Source of the DNA: a virus | Strand: one strand, 5' to 3' | Virus record (IMG/VR): IMGVR_UViG_3300025266_000004 | Span: 17,337-81,336 of that record | Length of the DNA stretch: 64,000 nucleotides | Shown: positions 16,550 to 26,038 of the stretch, piece by piece | Numbering within the stretch: position 1 is the first letter of the stretch | Layout of the letters: every line of letters begins with the position of its first letter | Notes under the pieces: generated by a model | The model's input: the letters and a program-made list of their open reading frames with translations, nothing else | What the model was told of the DNA's origin: nothing | Database searches by the model: none | Made by a program: the position numbers and the translations under genes

Positions 16550-17449
16550 TTAATTAAATATCTCGTCTATTAATGTAAATAGTTTTGTCTGTTCTAATTT
16601 AAAACTATCTTTCTCCTTTGTTTGTACATTTCTTAGTACTTTTATTAGAGCACCAAAATAAGCTACGTCAACACCAATTAATTGTTCTTCTAAAACATTG
16701 ACATCGTTCAAGTCTAAAAGTGATATTTGGTACATTATTTTAAGGTACTCACCTGCACCTATTTTATATCCTCTTAAAATGAACTTTTTACTTCTTATTA
16801 TAGATGTTAAAGGATATAAAGAACCTTGGTATCCCAATTGTTTAGTTAAAAGTGACTCTACAGCTTCTTTATTAGTCACTAAACCATCTTCCATTGTGAA
16901 ATAATTAGTAGCATGAATAAAATCAAAGCTTTTATGTATCTCTTCAACAGTACCACTGAATCTTGTAACCACTTGAACGTCATTAGAAAGACTTATTGCA
17001 TTAGGTGAGAAATAATCAGGTGTGTATTTATTCTTTTCAATATCTTCAACCTTATTACTTTTGTTTACTCCAGTACCACCTTGATCACCACCTATAAGTA
17101 ATCTTACTTGTCCTTCTTTGAGGTTATCTACAGCCATAGTAAATTGATTACTTATACCGTATGAGTTATAAGCTTCTACTGTTGTGTAAACATCTTTTAA
17201 TATACTATTTAATACAGTTATATCTCTATGATTCTTAGTATAATAAATAGCTAGTCTTTCAAGTACGGATATATCCGTAATATAGACATCATAATCATTG
17301 ACATCTTCATTAAGAAATAAAGATGCTATACAACCACCACTGACAACTAGATTATCTCTAACATCTTTAGCTAGGTTTTTGTCTGTTATAGTAGACAACC
17401 ATTCAAACATCTTCTTTCTTATTACTTTTGTTATTGTTTTCTTTTGCAT
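16550..17449 (-). CDS. Pol-beta-superfamily nucleotidyltransferase-like protein
   Basis: VVSGGCIASL...VNDYDVY (GG...DxD) and FDF motif, as in CCA-adding/poly(A) polymerase-like heads. Confidence 0.7.
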   Translation of the reverse strand: MQKKTITKVIRKKMFEWLSTITDKNLAKDVRDNLVVSGGCIASLFLNEDVNDYDVYITDISVLERLAIYYTKNHRDITVLNSILKDVYTTVEAYNSYGISNQFTMAVDNLKEGQVRLLIGGDQGGTGVNKSNKVEDIEKNKYTPDYFSPNAISLSNDVQVVTRFSGTVEEIHKSFDFIHATNYFTMEDGLVTNKEAVESLLTKQLGYQGSLYPLTSIIRSKKFILRGYKIGAGEYLKIMYQISLLDLNDVNVLEEQLIGVDVAYFGALIKVLRNVQTKEKDSFKLEQTKLFTLIDEIFN

Positions 17450-20033: not shown

Positions 20034-20149
20034 AACACCAATCTAAATAGTACATCTTCTCTGTGCCTTAAATGTCTGACGGATGGTGTACTTTCAATAT
20101 ATACTTCAACGATTCAAAGCTCCATGTATATATCTATTAGATTGGTATT
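20034..20149 (-). ncRNA. three-way-junction structured RNA directly 3' of the tRNA-like element
   Basis: 13-bp closing helix AAUACCAAUCUAA/UUAGAUUGGUGUU (one U-G pair on the minus strand); inner stems AUAUAUAC/GUAUAUAU and AGUACA/UGUACU. Confidence 0.5.
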
Positions 20150-20157
20150 GTAATTAG

Positions 20158-20259
20158 TAGTCAAGACAGGATTCGAACCTGTAAAACTGCTACCTCGTAA
20201 GGTTTCGTCATAATACCCATGGATTTACATACTGCGTCTACCAGTTTCGCCACTTGACT
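20158..20259 (-). tRNA. tRNA-like element (Leu-type D arm, non-canonical anticodon region, no encoded CCA)
   Basis: Acceptor AGTCAAG/CTTGACT+A, D arm TGGCGAAACTGGTAGACGC, T arm ACAGG-TTCGAAT-CCTGT; ~50 nt between the D and T arms with no standard 5-bp/7-nt anticodon arm. Confidence 0.7.
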
Positions 20260-20616: not shown

Positions 20617-21093
20617 TTATCCTATTGTCCATCTGTAGACTATACAAGATTCTGAACATTTGATTCTTTTCTCAGTATCACCATCTTTAACTATACGATA
20701 TTTAATATTATCAATAGTTACAGTTCTTAGTATAGTATATATTTCAGGTTTTCCGTATAGTTTACAACCACCACCTTTGTCTTCATATGATATATTCTCT
20801 TCTATATCAGAACTAGTAGCAGTCTTTTCTCTTTGTCTAATTTCAGCTTTTTCTTCTAGTATAATCTCACCTTTATAAATATTATATTCCTTACTCTTTG
20901 AACTGTGCCATTGAATAGCAAATATATCAAAACTAATCTTATACATAGATTTGATGATATCTTCAACTAATTCACAACCAATGAAATCATTATGAGTAAG
21001 ACCTACTTCCTCCCATTCTCCACTATCATTGAGAATATGTGATATAATATATTTAGAATACTTTACTCTGTTGTTTATGTCTGTTATTTCCAT
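20617..21093 (-). CDS. hypothetical protein
   Basis: 158-aa ORF with the conserved leader. Confidence 0.6.
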   Translation of the reverse strand: MEITDINNRVKYSKYIISHILNDSGEWEEVGLTHNDFIGCELVEDIIKSMYKISFDIFAIQWHSSKSKEYNIYKGEIILEEKAEIRQREKTATSSDIEENISYEDKGGGCKLYGKPEIYTILRTVTIDNIKYRIVKDGDTEKRIKCSESCIVYRWTIG

Positions 21094-21121
21094 TATTATT
21101 TGTGTTTGTTGTTAAAATATA

Positions 21122-21268
21122 ATATAAACTCTCTTATCTACTATCAATTGTAGATGTACATAAAGACTAATAACTCATACTACTTGAATCTAGTACTTAG
21201 TCACAAGAATTGAACTTGACTCTCTCTAGATATAGACCACTACTTGTGTTATTAAAGAGAGTTTATAT
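21122..21268 (-). ncRNA. multibranched RNA with a T-loop hairpin (unclassified)
   Basis: 14-bp perfect closing helix; inner UAAUAAC/GUUAUUA, UCUAG/CUAGA, CAAG-UUCAAUU-CUUG and AUCUAC/GUAGAU stems. Confidence 0.55.
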
Positions 21269-21289
21269 AATATGTTGTAATACTATTTG

Positions 21290-21360
21290 TTACAGTATTG
21301 TAAATAGTATTATAAACACCATTGTAAAATCTACACCAATATAGACTGTTAAATGTTATA
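21290..21360 (-). repeat. dispersed early-region repeat, copy A
   Basis: Shares TATAAACACCATTGTAAAAT and the GTAAAATCTACAC...AAATGTTATA segment with copy B. Confidence 0.75.
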
Positions 21361-21577
21361 ATTTGTACACTTTAATTATATACTCTATTTCCTTTTTCCA
21401 AAATCTTACAGGATTGTTTAAATCATTAGCTACAATAAATGTCTTATTGTTAATTGCTTTAATAGAGTCTTTCCAATATTTAATATAATTATTATAATGA
21501 CTTGTATTATGTCTTAAATCAAAGTCTTTTTTCTTTTGTAATTTGATCTTATAATTATCTACTTGTCCATTGTCCAT
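21356..21577 (-). CDS. hypothetical protein
   Basis: 73-aa ORF with the conserved leader. Confidence 0.55.
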   Translation of the reverse strand: MDNGQVDNYKIKLQKKKDFDLRHNTSHYNNYIKYWKDSIKAINNKTFIVANDLNNPVRFWKKEIEYIIKVYKL

Positions 21578-21610
21578 TTTATTTGTTGTTAAATCCGTTG
21601 TTATAATATG

Positions 21611-22081
21611 TTATAAATATGGTGTTGTATCATTACTTACAACATATTTAAGAGTATCTTTCATCGAATCCATTTCAGCTTCAAATTCCTCTATTTCTTT
21701 GTCTGTGTGATTACCTGAATAAATACATTTATTATCAACGAATAAACTACAACCAGGTCTGTACTGTTTATTGTATAGTAAATGACTACGAAGATTAGTA
21801 GCTTTAACGCCATTAATAACATGACCTCCATTACCATATAATCTTAGTACAGAATGTATTGTTTCACTAGAATTTACATCTAAAATACTATTCTTAATTA
21901 TATACTCTCTACAATTTTGTATTGCAACTGTTCTTGCGTGTGCTTCTCTCTCTGCTACATCAGGTATAGGATTTTTTACTACTATACCACTTAAAAAATG
22001 TGTACTAAAAAATAGATGAATGTCAGAGCCATTAGCATCAGGTTTGATATGTAGTTTATACAATTCTATTAGTTCTTTCAT
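21611..22081 (-). CDS. hypothetical protein
   Basis: 156-aa ORF with the conserved leader. Confidence 0.65.
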   Translation of the reverse strand: MKELIELYKLHIKPDANGSDIHLFFSTHFLSGIVVKNPIPDVAEREAHARTVAIQNCREYIIKNSILDVNSSETIHSVLRLYGNGGHVINGVKATNLRSHLLYNKQYRPGCSLFVDNKCIYSGNHTDKEIEEFEAEMDSMKDTLKYVVSNDTTPYL

Positions 22082-22105
22082 GTTGTTAAATATTATTTGT
22101 TATAT

Positions 22106-22214
22106 TACTTATTACAGCAGTGTAAATGTCACTATAAACACCATTGTAAAATTGTACAACTATTATTTGTACTTTTGTAAAATCTACACTAATATACACT
22201 GTAAAATGTTATAA
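22106..22214 (-). repeat. dispersed early-region repeat, copy B
   Basis: TACTTATTACAGCAGTGTAAAT identical to copy C; remainder similar to copies A and C. Confidence 0.75.
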
Positions 22215-22552
22215 AATGACAATACACAACAAACACTTATTCGCTTGTTAGTGTATTATACAGTTTAGGTCTATTAAATCCCTTATAAATTAATTCTTAT
22301 TGTAACTATTTTCATGGTGCACAAAGTTATTATTAGAACGCAGAATATTACCACTTGTAGCTCTGTTAAACAGTCACTACTACCTTTACTTAATAAATGT
22401 CTAAGTAATTATTAGAGTACTTTAGTCTCTCTATTTATGTGCTTATATAATTGACCATTCTGATATGTAGTGTAATCTAGTTACAGTAATTGTTAATTTA
22501 TAATTTGATAATCCCTCTATTTAGGAGGTTTAATCTGTTGCGTATTGTCATT
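22215..22552 (-). ncRNA. ~340-nt large structured RNA (unclassified)
   Basis: 17-bp closing helix with a single G-U pair on the minus strand; nested 11-bp and 8-bp helices and several inner stems; no ORF in the track. Confidence 0.6.
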
Positions 22553-22583
22553 AAATGTATTATTGTGTACTTATTAATTGTAG

Positions 22584-22695
22584 TACTTATTACAGCAGTG
22601 TAAATAGTACTATAAGTAGCATTGTGTAATTATTAAACTATTACGAAGCCTTTTGTGTAATATGTCGTAAAAACCACTAAACTATGTGATAAAAT
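22584..22695 (-). repeat. dispersed early-region repeat, copy C
   Basis: 22-nt exact match to copy B, then degenerate similarity. Confidence 0.7.
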
Positions 22696-22781
22696 ATGAC
22701 TAAAATGGTGAAATAATCGTGATTTGAGTATTAGGAACGTATGAAAAGGTGTATATTTATAATAGAGTGGTATAATAGGAG

Positions 22782-22846
22782 CTAGAGGGTTTGGTTTCTA
22801 AGCGACCAGCGGGAGCTGGTGTCCGTCGGTATACCATCCCCTCTAG
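22782..22846. ncRNA. GC-rich stem-loop element
   Basis: CTAGAGGG/CCCTCTAG outer stem and inner ACCAGC-GGGA-GCTGGT hairpin. Confidence 0.45.
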
Positions 22847-22877
22847 TATCCCAAGCATCTAATTATTCACCCAAATT

Positions 22878-23624
22878 TCAATCTGCAAATTCAACTCTCC
22901 CAAAATTAACTGTATAATCAACACCACCTACTCTATAATGGTACTCACCTTTTACATTATCAACAGCAGTTACTTTAGCTACTCTTTCTGCATCTTCTTT
23001 CCAGTATATCCAATGATCCACTAAATCGTGCTTTCTATCAACATTTTCACACTTATCTCCACCTTTATCTTCGTCTACTAATTTAGTAAATCTAGAATGT
23101 GTATTACGAAGCATCTTTCCCTTATAATAATGATATATATGTTCACCATATTCAATGTGTTCAGTAGTTCCAACTCCGTGAATAGTAAATGTACCTTCGT
23201 TAAGTAGTGTAAACCCTCTACCTACTAAACTATGTGTTCTACTAATCACTCCAGGTGTTAATTCGTCTTTATTAACAGGTACATAAACATCATCCTCACT
23301 ATGTATCCCAAGAGTATCAGCTTGTCCTTTTAAACCTTCAGCGTATTCAGCATTACTAACTTCAATTGCTTTACCCATCTTTTGATATGTAGTTTCACAT
23401 AAATCTAAGTCAGGTGATTTCAGTACTGTAATATCAAACAAAGCTATAAGTATTATATGTGCAAAATCATCTATAATCAATATAAGTTTAAAATCATTAC
23501 TTTTAGATTGATGGACAGCATCTAAAACACCTTTAAAAGTCATCCCACTGTTCTTTTCTTCAATTTCCACTGTAGAACCTACTAAACTATTTAGTTTCTC
23601 TACTATTATATCTCTTGTATTCAT
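22878..23624 (-). CDS. hypothetical early protein
   Basis: 248-aa ORF with an A-rich leader. Confidence 0.65.
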   Translation of the reverse strand: MNTRDIIVEKLNSLVGSTVEIEEKNSGMTFKGVLDAVHQSKSNDFKLILIIDDFAHIILIALFDITVLKSPDLDLCETTYQKMGKAIEVSNAEYAEGLKGQADTLGIHSEDDVYVPVNKDELTPGVISRTHSLVGRGFTLLNEGTFTIHGVGTTEHIEYGEHIYHYYKGKMLRNTHSRFTKLVDEDKGGDKCENVDRKHDLVDHWIYWKEDAERVAKVTAVDNVKGEYHYRVGGVDYTVNFGRVEFAD

Positions 23625-24393: not shown

Positions 24394-24580
24394 ATAAACA
24401 CTTACAAGGTTCTCATCCTTGAATTACTCAGGTGATTAATAAAGTTCGTCAGCCTCTCTTGGTTAGTTGGTAGAATATAACTTGTTGTACATTTCTTTAC
24501 CTATGTACACATTATATTCTACTGATTGTTTAACTTTATTAATTTGCACCTCAACCCTCTATGATTGGGTAAATGTTTAT
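24394..24580. ncRNA. ~190-nt rod/multibranch structured RNA (unclassified)
   Basis: 12-bp closing helix; ATTAATAAAGTT/AACTTTATTAAT, GTAGAATATAA/TTATATTCTAC, TGTACAT/ATGTACA stems and two side hairpins. Confidence 0.55.
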
Positions 24581-24593
24581 TATTTAAATGATA

Positions 24594-25022
24594 TTAGAAA
24601 GGCATATCATCATCACCTTTATCAGCAGATGCTACAGGAGCACTTGGTTGAGCTATTGCTTGACGCATTGCTACATCAATCAATTGATTAGTAGCTCTAG
24701 TACTCAATGCAATAGATTCATTAGTATTCTTTGGAAAGTCTTTTCCGTATACTCCTTCTTCGCCGTCCTTCTTAATATAAGTATCCCCAGCTTTCACATT
24801 CTCTACATCCATTGACATAGTACTACCACCAGTCTGTACTAAAAGCTTTAATACGAAAGCATTTGGTGCACCACATCTAGTAGCTAGTCTAGCTAGTTGT
24901 CCACTAGATTGTTTGAATACACCAGTAGCACTTGGATTGTCTGCTGATTTGTTTGTTACAATTACACCAGTACCGTCAGCGTTAATTTGAATTTCTTTGA
25001 TTGTTAATGTTACATTTTTCAT
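24594..25022 (-). CDS. SSB-like protein with a bacterial SSB C-terminal tip
   Basis: Beta-rich N-terminus, Ala/Pro linker, ends DDDMPF (compare SSB-Ct DDDIPF). Confidence 0.6.
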   Translation of the reverse strand: MKNVTLTIKEIQINADGTGVIVTNKSADNPSATGVFKQSSGQLARLATRCGAPNAFVLKLLVQTGGSTMSMDVENVKAGDTYIKKDGEEGVYGKDFPKNTNESIALSTRATNQLIDVAMRQAIAQPSAPVASADKGDDDMPF

Positions 25023-25258
25023 AAGTCTTAAAGTTTAAAAGTTAATAAGTTATTATATTATTCTACTACCTATTCGTTATAAGTAGATTTTGAGGATTAA
25101 AAACACCATCGGGGTGATTCAATCCAAAATTTAGTGAGGGGGGATGAATGGAGGTGGTTCTCGCTTCGACATATATCCCCACTTTTATTTCTACAAATTT
25201 TTATTTTTTATATCCACTTTACCATCATCCAATACGTCGCCTAGTATATATGCCAGAG

Positions 25259-25490
25259 AGTCTCCTAATATCTTGTGTTTAATATCTTGTGTCATCTATG
25301 TCTAATATCTCCCGATTTATCATTTGTAGAGTCTCCGAATAGTCTCAATTTCACCATGTTGTAAAGTCTCCAAATAGTCGCTAAGTCGGCATGTCGAATA
25401 GTCTCCAGAATCTCACTTTATATAGTCTCCAATCAGCAGTCTAAAAATCTCAATTATCACCACCTTGTACAGTCTTTACAATCTCCAGTT
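25259..25490. repeat. iteron-like AGTCTCC repeat cluster (candidate origin or terminus)
   Basis: Five AGTCTCC copies plus AGTCT variants, two adjacent 35-nt units (25324-25358, 25359-25393), and tandem TAATATCTTGTGT, all in the strand-switch gap. Confidence 0.6.
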
Positions 25491-25825
25491 ATATACCACT
25501 CTATACACTTGTAAAACCACCATTGTAGATTGTACTATATAGAGACACCGTGACACCATTTTTTCATTAACGGCTAGACACCAAGTAGAGCAGTCTAAAT
25601 AGTTGTTCAATATTTAGAGTAGGATTTGGGATGGGATTTGGAGTGCTCTAAAAGATGATACTTTAGATACCAAAGATGAACCTATAATAAACACCATGTG
25701 GACTGCTATAAATTGTTATATAGTATATGGTGCATTGGTGACTCCACGAGTGGGTATAAAAAATCCCATATACATTGGTGTAGTATATAGGTGTGGTGTT
25801 TTCTTGTTACCTTGAATAAGATATT

Positions 25826-25857
25826 TAAAGGTACAAGAAATTCCTGACATATCCTAA
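25826..25857 (-). promoter_or_regulatory. leftward Bacteroidota-type promoter variant
   Basis: TTAGGATAT-N12-TTGTACCTTTA on the minus strand, matching the 13971 copy. Confidence 0.5.
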
Positions 25858-25977
25858 TTTTGTCGTACATTATTTCAAATTAAATTTGGCGTATCAGCCT
25901 GTAATGTAGAAAATAGTGACGTGGTGGTTCTACTATTTGGAGGTATTTAAAAATAATGAAATAAAGACTATACATAA

Positions 25978-26009
25978 TTAGGTTTTACGGTTTATTGTCT
26001 ATATATTAG
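25978..26009 (+). promoter_or_regulatory. rightward Bacteroidota-type promoter variant
   Basis: TTAG-N20-TATATTAG, ~30 nt upstream of the first plus-strand gene. Confidence 0.5.
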
Positions 26010-26038
26010 TGTATCTTTAGGCAGAAGAACTCACAGCA

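What the first reader, a model, noticed from the sequence alone, without database searches (positions are those of the whole stretch)
22215..22552. ~340-nt large structured ncRNA candidate
Seen on the minus strand: AAUGACAAUACGCAACA/UGUUGUGUAUUGUCAUU (17 bp), CCUC/GAGG, UUAUAAAUUAA/UUAAUUUAUAA, UGUAACUA/UAGUUACA, AUGGU/ACCAU, GCACA/UGUGC, UUACUUAG/UUAAGUAA, a GUAG..CUG/CAG..CUAC arm, and a possible crossing CAGAAU/AUUCUG pairing. It is flanked on both sides by repeat copies B and C. Inference: size and complexity fit a ribozyme or RNP scaffold; no full group I, RNase P or tmRNA signature was recognised. The flanking repeats could make it an exchangeable cassette.
Basis: partly seen in the sequence, partly recalled or inferred. 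Interest (0 to 1): 0.75.

Follow-up and report, generated by a model that had tools for sequence, protein, structure and literature searches.

The report
Conserved structured RNA of crAss-like phages
A 338-base gene-free stretch in the early region of a marine crAss-like phage folds into a branched structure and has a shorter relative in one other phage that keeps the same core letters while its closing stem has changed completely but still pairs, so it is probably a new functional non-coding RNA of unknown role.

Summary
No reading frame is open and no Rfam family matches.

The window is part of an 81-kb distant crAss-like phage.

The main new result is a homologue of 195 nt in one other IMG/VR phage (L022:150-344, minus strand; TerL 62% identical). 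It shares four identical blocks in the same order: UUAAACCUC, 7-nt loop, GAGGGAUUAUCAAAU, AGGGAUUUAAU, GCGAAUAAGUG. Its terminal helix has an unrelated sequence that still pairs: of 16 aligned pairs, 9 changed on both sides and none is broken. The neighbouring genes are not homologous. The relative folds much better on the sense strand (-48.4 against -33.9 kcal/mol).

My reading is a conserved multi-helix junction RNA with variable outer helices. Its function is unknown.

Limits:
- Only two members were found.
- No expression data exist.
- In this window the antisense strand folds equally well.
- A DNA-level role is not excluded.

The "exchangeable cassette" idea is not supported. The flanking repeats look like promoters and do not flank the relative's copy. 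The scan holds no note of this element on other DNA.

The parts
22536..22552 (-). P1, 5' arm of the closing helix (AAUGACAAUACGCAACA)
   Evidence: MFE; inverted repeat I4 (17 nt, 94%); 17 consecutive pairs, one of them G-U. The relative has a 16-bp helix of unrelated sequence at the same place.
22215..22231 (-). P1, 3' arm of the closing helix (UGUUGUGUAUUGUCAUU)
22525..22533 (-). conserved block 1, UUAAACCUC; its last four bases are the 5' strand of hairpin P2
   Evidence: identical in L022
22503..22517 (-). conserved block 2, GAGGGAUUAUCAAAU; its first four bases are the 3' strand of hairpin P2. The 7-nt loop lies at 22518-22524.
   Evidence: 15 of 15 identical in L022, while only 1 of 7 loop positions is identical. 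Hairpin is in the MFE of both sequences.
   Evidence: (I1). Not alignable with the relative except for a 4-bp closing helix whose pairs all differ.
22273..22283 (-). conserved block 3, AGGGAUUUAAU
   Evidence: identical in L022
22234..22244 (-). conserved block 4, GCGAAUAAGUG
   Evidence: identical in L022
22571..22695 (-). promoter-like repeat copy C, upstream of the element; sigma-70-like hexamers TTTACA-16-TACAAT at 22604..22577
   Evidence: (D2). Promoter activity is inferred, not shown.
22093..22217 (-). promoter-like repeat copy B, between the element and the ATG of the 156-aa ORF at 22081
22782..22846 (-). G+C-rich 65-nt hairpin about 30 nt after the stop of ORF 22878-23624; it may end the upstream transcription unit
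   Evidence: z -4.64 minus, -3.94 plus. No U tract follows. Its role is inferred.

Best explanation
The stretch encodes a structured non-coding RNA read from the minus (sense) strand of the phage's leftward arm of small genes. Two marine crAss-like phages share it.

Proposed fold: a multi-helix junction. A long terminal helix P1 (16-17 bp, extendable to about 20) brings the two ends together. From the junction come a short hairpin P2 (CCUC, 7-nt loop, GAGG) and a central domain P3 of free length and sequence, with a 3' segment carrying the last two blocks. The strictly conserved letters (UUAAACCUC, GAGGGAUUAUCAAAU, AGGGAUUUAAU, GCGAAUAAGUG) lie in P2 and in the strands joining the helices.

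Inferred mechanism: the RNA is made early, from promoter-like repeat C or by read-through from upstream. P1 defines and protects its ends, possibly as a double-strand-specific processing site, as in rRNA precursors. The conserved junction is the surface that binds a host or phage factor, or forms a catalytic or ligand pocket.

Shown: the fold signal, homology with a second phage, maintenance of the helix through compensatory change, and absence of coding capacity.

Inferred: transcription, the strand in this window, processing, and any partner.
For: 1. Fold signal in two phages. This element has z -4.15. The relative has z -4.19, with 0 of 200 shuffles as stable.

2. Homology. Four identical blocks lie in the same order in both. 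The chain of exact blocks of 11 nt or more is 37 nt. It was reached by 0 of 4000 dinucleotide shuffles (max 36) and 0 of 396 real windows of the own genome (max 24). nhmmer profiles of the 5' and 3' modules hit L022 at E 7.2e-7 and 4e-6 among 109 loci (1.28 Mb), and nothing else that carries both modules.

3. P1 is kept by structure, not sequence. Of 16 pairs aligned from the inner end, 5 are the same, 2 changed on one side, 9 changed on both sides and 0 are broken. The P3 closing pairs all differ and still pair in 4 of 4. The helix around P2 is GAU/AUC in one and GGU/AUC in the other.

4. The P2 loop is free (1 of 7 positions identical) while 24 of 24 stem and flank positions are identical.

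5. It is an island of conservation. Of 13 leftward ORFs tested around it, only the 142-aa first gene (24594-25022) has a tblastn match in the relative. The only nucleotide matches between the two arms are that gene and its leader, two short matches (28 nt in ORF 16550-17449, E 4e-4; 40 nt in the divergent region, E 0.001), and the element.

6. Strand. The relative folds at -48.4 kcal/mol on the sense strand against -33.9 on the antisense. In the shared helices all non-Watson-Crick pairs are G-U on the sense strand and none is A-C.

7. Not coding, not known, not repeated. Stops fill all frames. No Rfam match to this element or to the relative. No second copy in the genome. No similarity to any of 511 ORFs of the genome.

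8. Precedent. In the crAss-like Cellulophaga phage phi14:2, two long intergenic regions among early genes are transcribed above most genes from the earliest time point, and are called long non-coding RNAs of unknown function (passages of bioRxiv 10.1101/2020.03.07.982082).
Against: - Only two sequences exist, so no statistical covariation test (R-scape) is possible. Any two perfect helices score as compensatory in any register.
- No RNA data. The single public run holding the stretch is a DNA metagenome that may be its source.
- In this window the antisense strand folds as well (-75.0 against -74.0). The whole-fold G-U count favours the antisense strand (5 sense, 14 antisense). Over five structured gaps of the arm the count is 4 sense against 6 antisense.
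- No terminator follows the element in either phage. The simple scan finds no sigma-70-like promoter in the 700 nt around the relative's copy, so an own promoter is not a shared feature.
- The fold is not unique in the genome (3 and 11 of 624 windows as extreme).
- Three conserved blocks can also be read as one DNA word in three copies, one of them inverted (GAGG(G)AUU...). That also fits protein-binding sites on DNA.
- The element is absent from the next relatives. Among 50 whole records of TerL relatives, only the L022 record has the 15-mer, allowing up to 2 mismatches, in a credible place.
- The phi14:2 regions share no sequence with it. In 283-nt tiles they show no comparable fold signal (z +1.95 to -2.03 on the transcribed strand).
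Confidence: 0.45

Rival explanations
1. A cis-acting RNA element of the early polycistronic transcript. In this reading it is a structured intergenic spacer or leader whose long closing helix serves as a processing site for a double-strand-specific RNase, or as a stability barrier. That would be like the RNase III sites between T7 early genes (recalled knowledge). It would not be a separate RNA with its own target.
For: - In the relative the element lies 69 nt after an upstream ORF and 18 nt before the ATG of a small ORF, with no promoter-like site found.
- No terminator follows it in either phage.
- Four other gaps in the same arm are closed by long helices with significant folds: 20034-20149 z -3.36, 21114-21276 z -2.46, 22782-22846 z -4.64, 24394-24580 z -4.82.
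- The 21114-21276 element starts right after promoter-like copy A and ends 20 nt before a gene's ATG.
Against: - A pure processing or stability stem needs no sequence conservation, yet 46 nt inside are identical between phages whose P1 and neighbouring genes have diverged completely.
- The downstream genes differ, so it does not regulate one particular gene.
- The other structured gaps have no detectable counterpart in the relative.
Confidence: 0.25
2. A DNA-level element. It could be a replication origin or single-strand initiation signal activated by nearby transcription, as at the T7 primary origin or T4 oriF/oriG (recalled knowledge). Or it could be a cluster of binding sites for a conserved phage DNA-binding protein.
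For: - Both strands of this window's copy fold equally well, and G-U counts do not favour the sense strand here.
- It is unique in the genome, AT-rich (28% G+C), and set between two promoter-like repeats.
- Blocks 1, 2 and 3 are versions of one word, with block 1 inverted (reading).
Against: - Inverted repeats 300 nt apart do not extrude easily from duplex DNA. Keeping P1 through 9 two-sided changes points to folding of a single strand.
- The relative's copy folds 14.5 kcal/mol better on the sense strand.
- The divergent region 25023-26038 holds many iteron-like repeats and lies at the minimum of cumulative GC skew, so it is a better origin candidate. That skew is confounded with gene direction.
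- The blocks occur nowhere else in either genome.
Confidence: 0.15
3. No function. On this reading it is chance inverted repeats in AT-rich spacer DNA, a decayed gene, or a small mobile insertion with terminal inverted repeats.
For: - Other windows of the genome fold as well.
- Only two members were found, and only in two related phages.
- The central 219 nt, with its 26-nt imperfect inverted repeat, is lineage-specific and could be an insertion.
- An ATG opens at the first bases of P1 in both phages, giving 17 and 7 codons.
Against: - The block conservation is beyond chance.
- The helices are kept through change.
- No similarity to any ORF of the genome, and stops fill every frame.
- Single copy, and closing helices of different sequence in each structured gap, so it is not a repeated transposon family.
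- The two short ORFs share neither length nor sequence.
Confidence: 0.1
4. A diverged member of a known RNA family with paired ends: a Y RNA for a Ro60/TROVE protein, a retron msr-msd RNA, or a large phage-associated RNA such as GOLLD or ROOL.
For: - The ends pair in a long stem around a branched interior, as in Y RNAs and retron RNAs (recalled knowledge).
- The crAss-like phage crAss001 has a TROVE-domain protein among its early genes (passage of PMC8375218).
Against: - No Rfam model reaches even E 0.6 in 21000-23000, and none matches the relative at E up to 10.
- No TROVE match in this phage, the relative, L026's record or phi14:2 (controls positive).
- No reverse transcriptase in this phage or the relative (controls positive).
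Confidence: 0.03

Closest known systems
Early long non-coding RNAs of Cellulophaga phage phi14:2 (g004-g005 and g005-g006 intergenic regions; bioRxiv 10.1101/2020.03.07.982082, passages read)
   Same: Both are in a marine crAss-like phage. Both are long ORF-free stretches among small genes near the arm that enters transcription first, in the sense orientation. Function is unknown in both.
   Different: No sequence or block similarity. 283-nt tiles of the phi14:2 region show no comparable fold signal. Expression is shown for phi14:2 and unknown here. Conservation and a covarying helix are shown here and not reported there.
Y RNA / YrlA with Ro60 (TROVE) protein
   Same: The 5' and 3' ends pair in a long stem that closes a branched interior. 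A TROVE protein is an early gene product of crAss001 (PMC8375218, passage read).
   Different: No TROVE gene in this phage or its relative. No Rfam match. The Ro-binding helix motif was not examined.
Retron msr-msd non-coding RNA
   Same: Inverted repeats at the two ends close the RNA (recalled knowledge).
   Different: No reverse transcriptase gene in either phage. The downstream genes are unrelated small ORFs.
RNase III processing stems (T7 early mRNA sites, rRNA precursor stems; recalled knowledge)
   Same: A helix of 16-20 bp is formed by sequences flanking a unit inside a longer early transcript. Several such closed units lie in the same arm.
   Different: Here the enclosed RNA has a strictly conserved core, which a mere cleavage site does not need. 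Cleavage was not tested.
Junction-centred structured RNAs in general (riboswitch aptamers, small ribozymes)
   Same: Invariant nucleotides concentrate at a multi-helix junction, while peripheral helices vary in length and sequence and keep pairing.
   Different: No match to any curated family. No ligand, cleavage site or expression platform was identified. Only two sequences.

Membership tests
Any Rfam 15 family | covariance-model score at or above the family's gathering score | tested here: not met
   one match in 64 kb, a tRNA at 20158-20259, and none in the element; 4 matches at E up to 10 in 21000-23000, all far below gathering; the only one inside the element is K10_TLS at 16.3 bits against 43; none for the relative's copy.
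New structured-RNA family (general criteria) | homologues in other genomes with conserved sequence blocks | tested here: met
   One homologue, L022:150-344(-). Searches (0 of 4000 shuffles, 0 of 396 genome windows; E 7.2e-7 and 4e-6).
New structured-RNA family (general criteria) | statistically supported covariation in the proposed helices | tested here: inconclusive
   P1: 9 of 16 pairs changed on both sides and 0 broken. P3 closing helix: 4 of 4 differ and pair. With two sequences no significance test is possible.
New structured-RNA family (general criteria) | expression as RNA from the proposed strand | not testable with these tools
   No RNA run listed. Only contigs of one DNA metagenome could be laid.
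Y RNA / Ro60 RNP | Ro60 (TROVE) protein gene in the same genome | tested here: not met
   PF05731: 0 matches in the own record, and 0 in 4 other records. Controls were positive in 2 of 14 genomes.
Y RNA / Ro60 RNP | terminal stem formed by the 5' and 3' ends | tested here: met
   (predicted folds only).
Retron msr-msd | adjacent reverse transcriptase gene | tested here: not met
   PF00078: 0 of 3 records. Controls were positive in 4 of 14 genomes.
phi14:2-type early lncRNA | long ORF-free stretch among small genes of the early arm of a crAss-like phage | tested here: met
   That this arm is 'early' is inferred from gene content and position, not shown.
phi14:2-type early lncRNA | sequence or structural similarity to the phi14:2 regions | tested here: not met
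Mobile cassette or MITE | several copies sharing terminal inverted repeats; target-site duplication; forms with and without the insert | tested here: not met
   Single copy. The closing helices of the five structured gaps differ in sequence. No credible deleted form in the one metagenome. The relative's copy is not flanked by the repeats.
Transcription-primed replication origin (T7 / T4 type) | promoter followed by an AT-rich unwinding region where replication starts | tested here: inconclusive
   Promoter-like repeats on both sides and 28% G+C. No such promoter at the relative's copy. Initiation cannot be tested here.
RNase III processing stem | about two turns of double-stranded RNA formed by the flanks, cleaved by RNase III | not testable with these tools
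   Helix length is 17 bp (extendable by 3) here, and 16 plus 5 bp in the relative. Cleavage is untested.

The most novel reading that the evidence does not exclude
This is the founding pair of a new class of phage RNA. It would be a compact junction RNA, made at the start of infection by marine crAss-like phages, whose invariant core binds and disables a host factor (for example a defence sensor, a nuclease or the translation apparatus) or is itself catalytic. Its variable outer helices would serve only to close and protect it. The several other closed structures in the same arm would then be further, unrelated members of an early 'RNA arsenal'.
Probability: 0.15. Interest if true: 0.85.

Novelty: new variant of a known kind. 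Interest (0 to 1): 0.6.

Why it matters
crAss-like phages are among the most abundant viruses of Bacteroidota. Their early regions consist almost entirely of unknowns.

The only transcriptome of a marine member (phi14:2) showed that unexplained non-coding RNAs are among its most abundant early products. Here a non-coding element in such a region is shown, for the first time as far as my two literature searches reach, to be conserved between phages. It keeps an invariant core and a helix maintained through compensatory change, while every neighbouring gene but one has been replaced.

That makes it a defined, short (195-338 nt) object that can be synthesised, probed, pulled down and deleted. It gives a direct handle on what early phage RNAs do.

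Tried and rejected
**Decayed gene or paralogue.** tblastn of 511 ORFs of 40 aa or more from the genome against the 796-nt gap gave only self hits and cross hits between repeats B and C. Stop reassignment is ruled out.

**Helicase remnant.** The hairpin block reads K-P-...-R-D-Y-Q in one frame, and three pattern hits in IMG/VR lie in ORFs with that peptide. This genome has no other R[DE][YF]Q. The variation between the two phages is not codon-like. I treat the resemblance as coincidence.

**Close DNA relatives.**
- phages collection: megablast and blastn found none. A 56-nt query at E up to 10 gave 8 records, all E 1 or more, inside genes of unrelated phages.
- Viral contigs: 0 hits for the promoter core. 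The 17-mer of P1 gave 15 chance hits; the best, L011, lies across a stop/start junction of two ORFs.
- Metagenome contigs: 3 chance hits lacking blocks 3 and 4.
- Genome contigs: 2 chance hits lacking the hairpin.

**Flanking proteins as anchors.** No relatives were found.

**Expression.** No RNA holder is listed. Contigs of the single DNA run show no variant. The one 'joint' rests on 21-nt sides of a 313-nt contig, and I disregard it.

**Partner proteins.** TROVE and RT are absent. A KH_2 protein occurs only in the relative. The upstream ORF 22878-23624 has a sub-threshold SM-ATX hit (E 9.4e-4, 19.8 bits against a cut-off of 29.8). Its single-sequence AlphaFold model failed (mean pLDDT 32.5), so no fold search was run.

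**Alternative pairing of block 1 with block 3.** It costs 7.5 and 4.2 kcal/mol over the MFE. It is not favoured and cannot be tested by covariation.

**Alignment tools.** A MAFFT alignment of the two full elements misplaced the 3' half, so I anchored on the blocks in scripts. RNAalifold on that anchored alignment missed P1 because the arm spacers differ by 2-3 nt.

**Not run or not seen.**
- No covariance model was built: 338 columns would exceed the calibration limit, and two sequences add little over nhmmer.
They may bear on whether repeats A-C resemble its middle promoters.

Full report
**Context**

The window is bases 17337-81336 of an 81,336-bp IMG/VR virus record estimated 93% complete, with about 30% G+C.
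- PHROG profiles identify a large terminase, a portal, a DNA polymerase and a Dda-like helicase.
- The terminase is about 35% identical to those of gut crAss-like phages, and also matches Flavobacterium and Bacteroides phages.
- Genes run leftward from 25022 and rightward from 26039.
- The finding lies in the leftward arm, among small ORFs without known families. It sits in a 796-nt ORF-free gap (22082-22877) between ORF 22878-23624 and ORF 21611-22081.

**The observation**

The repeat finder independently reports the 17-nt closing repeat and a 26-nt inner repeat.

Two cautions apply.
- The plus strand folds as well (-75.0, z -4.45).
- Against 624 tiled windows of the whole genome, corrected for G+C, 3 (plus) and 11 (minus) are at least as extreme.

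The proposed crossing pair CAGAAU/AUUCUG is no more than chance: 36 complementary 6-mer pairs were observed against 34.9 +/- 8.7 expected.

The stretch is not coding. There are 9-13 stops per 112 codons in each of six frames, of two or three kinds. It resembles none of the genome's 511 ORFs, and it is single-copy. Rfam gives nothing.

**The flanking repeats**

Copies B and C (125 nt, 71% identical), and a third copy A at 21263-21342, share a core that is identical over 21 nt in B and C. The core has sigma-70-like hexamers TTTACA-16 nt-TAYAAY.
- B ends 12 nt before the ATG of the 156-aa ORF.
- A is followed at once by another closed structure (21114-21276) and then a gene.
- C ends 18 nt before the element.

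I read them as promoters. This is an inference. The phi14:2 paper describes tripartite middle promoters with -35 and -10-like blocks, but its logos are in figures and supplements that I could not see.

**Search for relatives**

Direct DNA searches, and searches with the two flanking proteins, found nothing.

A terminase search in the large protein collection showed that relatives do exist. Two are at 74% identity (P0003, P0004; Logan/ENA only) and three at 61-62%.

An alignment of 11 terminases retrieved 80 IMG/VR loci. L022, L023 and L024 appear to be one phage at 62% TerL identity, and L026 is at 53%.

The relative has the same two-arm layout. Of 13 leftward ORFs of this window that were tested, only the first gene (24594-25022, 55% identical) has a counterpart.

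**The homologue**

blastn gave a borderline hit of element bases 14-50 to L022 321-285 (E 0.007 in 1.06 Mb). Reading that place on the sense strand shows a 195-nt element, L022:150-344, with these features in the same order as here:
1. a long terminal helix,
2. R-UUAAACCUC, 7 nt, GAGGGAUUAUCAAAU,
3. a central stretch,
4. AGGGAUUUAAU,
5. 15 nt (28 here),
6. GCGAAUAAGUG-Y-UU,
7. the other arm of the terminal helix.

Statistics for the homology:
- The chain of exact blocks of 11 nt or more (37 nt) was reached by 0 of 4000 dinucleotide shuffles (max 36) and 0 of 396 real windows of this genome (max 24).
- With blocks of 9 nt or more the plain length statistic is weak: 44 of 4000 shuffles reach it. 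The composition-weighted statistic is reached by 1 of 4000 shuffles and 0 of 396 windows.
- nhmmer profiles of the 5' and 3' modules find L022 at E 7.2e-7 and 4e-6 among 109 loci. Otherwise they find only the loci that my own pattern scans had fetched, and none of those has both modules.

No further member was found:
- IMG/VR (5 stretches, of which 1 is the L022 contig and 4 are chance; that contig only),
- JGI metagenomes,
- GTDB genomes,
- 50 whole records of terminase relatives (7 matches with up to 2 mismatches against 2 for the reversed control; only the L022 record is exact, and of the other six the four I located lie inside or just beyond the terminase gene or outside the early arm; the two in G026 were not examined),
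- phi14:2.

**Structure shared by the two**

The relative's element folds at -48.4 kcal/mol on the sense strand (z -4.19, 0 of 200 shuffles) and at -33.9 on the antisense strand (z -2.88).

- **P1.** Aligned from the inner end, P1 has 16 comparable pairs: 5 identical, 2 changed on one side, 9 changed on both sides, none broken.
- **P2.** It is identical in stem and flanks (24 of 24 positions), with a free loop (1 of 7).
- **Helix enclosing P2.** A 3-bp helix is GAU/AUC here and GGU/AUC there.
- **P3.** The central domain is closed by 10 bp here and by 4 bp in the relative. All four of those pairs differ from ours. Enforcing them costs 2.2 kcal/mol.
- **Overall.** The invariant letters therefore sit in P2 and in the strands joining the helices, while P1 and P3 are free in sequence and, for P3, in length (219 against 70 nt).

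This is the pattern of a junction-centred functional RNA. It argues against recent transfer, because then the helices would be alike too. It also argues against neutral spacer.

In the shared helices every non-canonical pair is G-U on the sense strand. Over the whole MFE folds the counts are mixed: here 5 sense against 14 antisense, and in the relative 9 against 5.

**What it is not**

- It is not a known Rfam family.
- A Y RNA for a phage Ro60 is unlikely. A TROVE protein is an early product of crAss001 (PMC8375218, passage), but no TROVE gene is found here, in the relative, in L026's record or in phi14:2.
- It is not a retron (no RT).
- It is not a repeated mobile element.
- No RNA-binding protein is shared by the two phages next to it. 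A KH_2 protein occurs only in the relative. A weak Sm-like hit occurs only here, is absent from the relative, and the protein's model failed.

**Mechanism**

I commit to a sense-strand non-coding RNA whose ends are defined and protected by P1 and whose conserved junction is the working surface (confidence 0.45).

The nearest rival is a cis-acting processing or stability element of the early transcript (0.25). It is favoured by three things: no promoter-like site at the relative's copy, no terminator in either phage, and four more closed structures in this arm. It is disfavoured by the invariant core.

A DNA-level role (0.15) cannot be excluded. The fold in this window is strand-symmetric, and three blocks can be read as one word in direct and inverted copies. 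The divergent region 25023-26038, full of iteron-like repeats, is a better origin candidate.

The phi14:2 long non-coding RNAs are a positional precedent only. There is no similarity and no comparable fold signal in tiles.

**Verdict**

This is a real, conserved, structured non-coding element, most likely an RNA. It is new as a family, with two members. Function, expression and strand in this phage remain to be shown.

Noticed in passing
window 20158-20259 (-): A 102-nt tRNA-like sequence. Rfam tRNA scores 37.8 bits over the full model, yet ARAGORN calls no tRNA anywhere in the window. Its fold is not unusual (z -1.03). It may be a tRNA with an insertion in the anticodon region.
   Followed up: partly
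window 20034-20149, 21114-21276, 22782-22846, 24394-24580 (-): Four more intergenic stretches of the same arm are closed by 8-22-bp terminal helices and fold better than shuffles (z -3.36, -2.46, -4.64, -4.82 on the minus strand, similar on the plus). Their closing helices differ in sequence. No counterpart was detected in the relative's gaps.
   Followed up: partly
window 25023-26038: The 1-kb divergent region between the two arms carries many short repeated words (GGAGACT..., GAGACTATTCG, TACAATGGTG, CACAAGATATTA) and lies at the minimum of cumulative GC skew. A stretch before the first leftward gene (CCCCCTCACTAAATTTT...) is conserved in the relative. It is a candidate origin or regulatory region.
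   Followed up: no
window 21263-21342, 22093-22217, 22571-22695 (-): Three copies of a promoter-like repeat: upstream block ACAATGGTGTTTATAGT, then TTTACA-16 nt-TAYAAY.
   Followed up: partly
window 22878-23624 (-): The 248-aa ORF just upstream of the gap has a sub-threshold match to the Ataxin-2 Sm domain (residues 11-49, E 9.4e-4, 19.8 bits against a cut-off of 29.8). It is absent from the relative and from L026's record. The single-sequence structure model was unusable (pLDDT 32.5).
   Followed up: partly
L105 5676-6131 (-) = L022 3929-4384: The related phage encodes a 151-aa protein with a KH_2 RNA-binding domain (E 6e-14, above cut-off) in its arm of small leftward genes. This window's phage has none.
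   Followed up: partly
L022 4784-5310 (-): The related phage has a further gap of about 520 nt without ORFs, holding several G+C-richer hairpin-like segments and a TATAACAAATAATA word shared with promoter-like copy B.
   Followed up: no
window 25023-25050; L022 4385-4415 and 1982-2018: A leader word TATTAACYTTTAAACTTTA just before the ATG is shared by genes of both phages. Several genes of this window instead start after TTTAACAAC. Shine-Dalgarno sequences are not evident, as expected for a Bacteroidota host (recalled knowledge).
   Followed up: no
protein P0030 (terminase relative, 1087 aa): One terminase homologue (50% identical, 78% of the query covered) is about 390 residues longer than the rest and carries PF14528 by the precomputed annotation. 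This suggests an inserted homing-endonuclease or intein-type domain.
   Followed up: no
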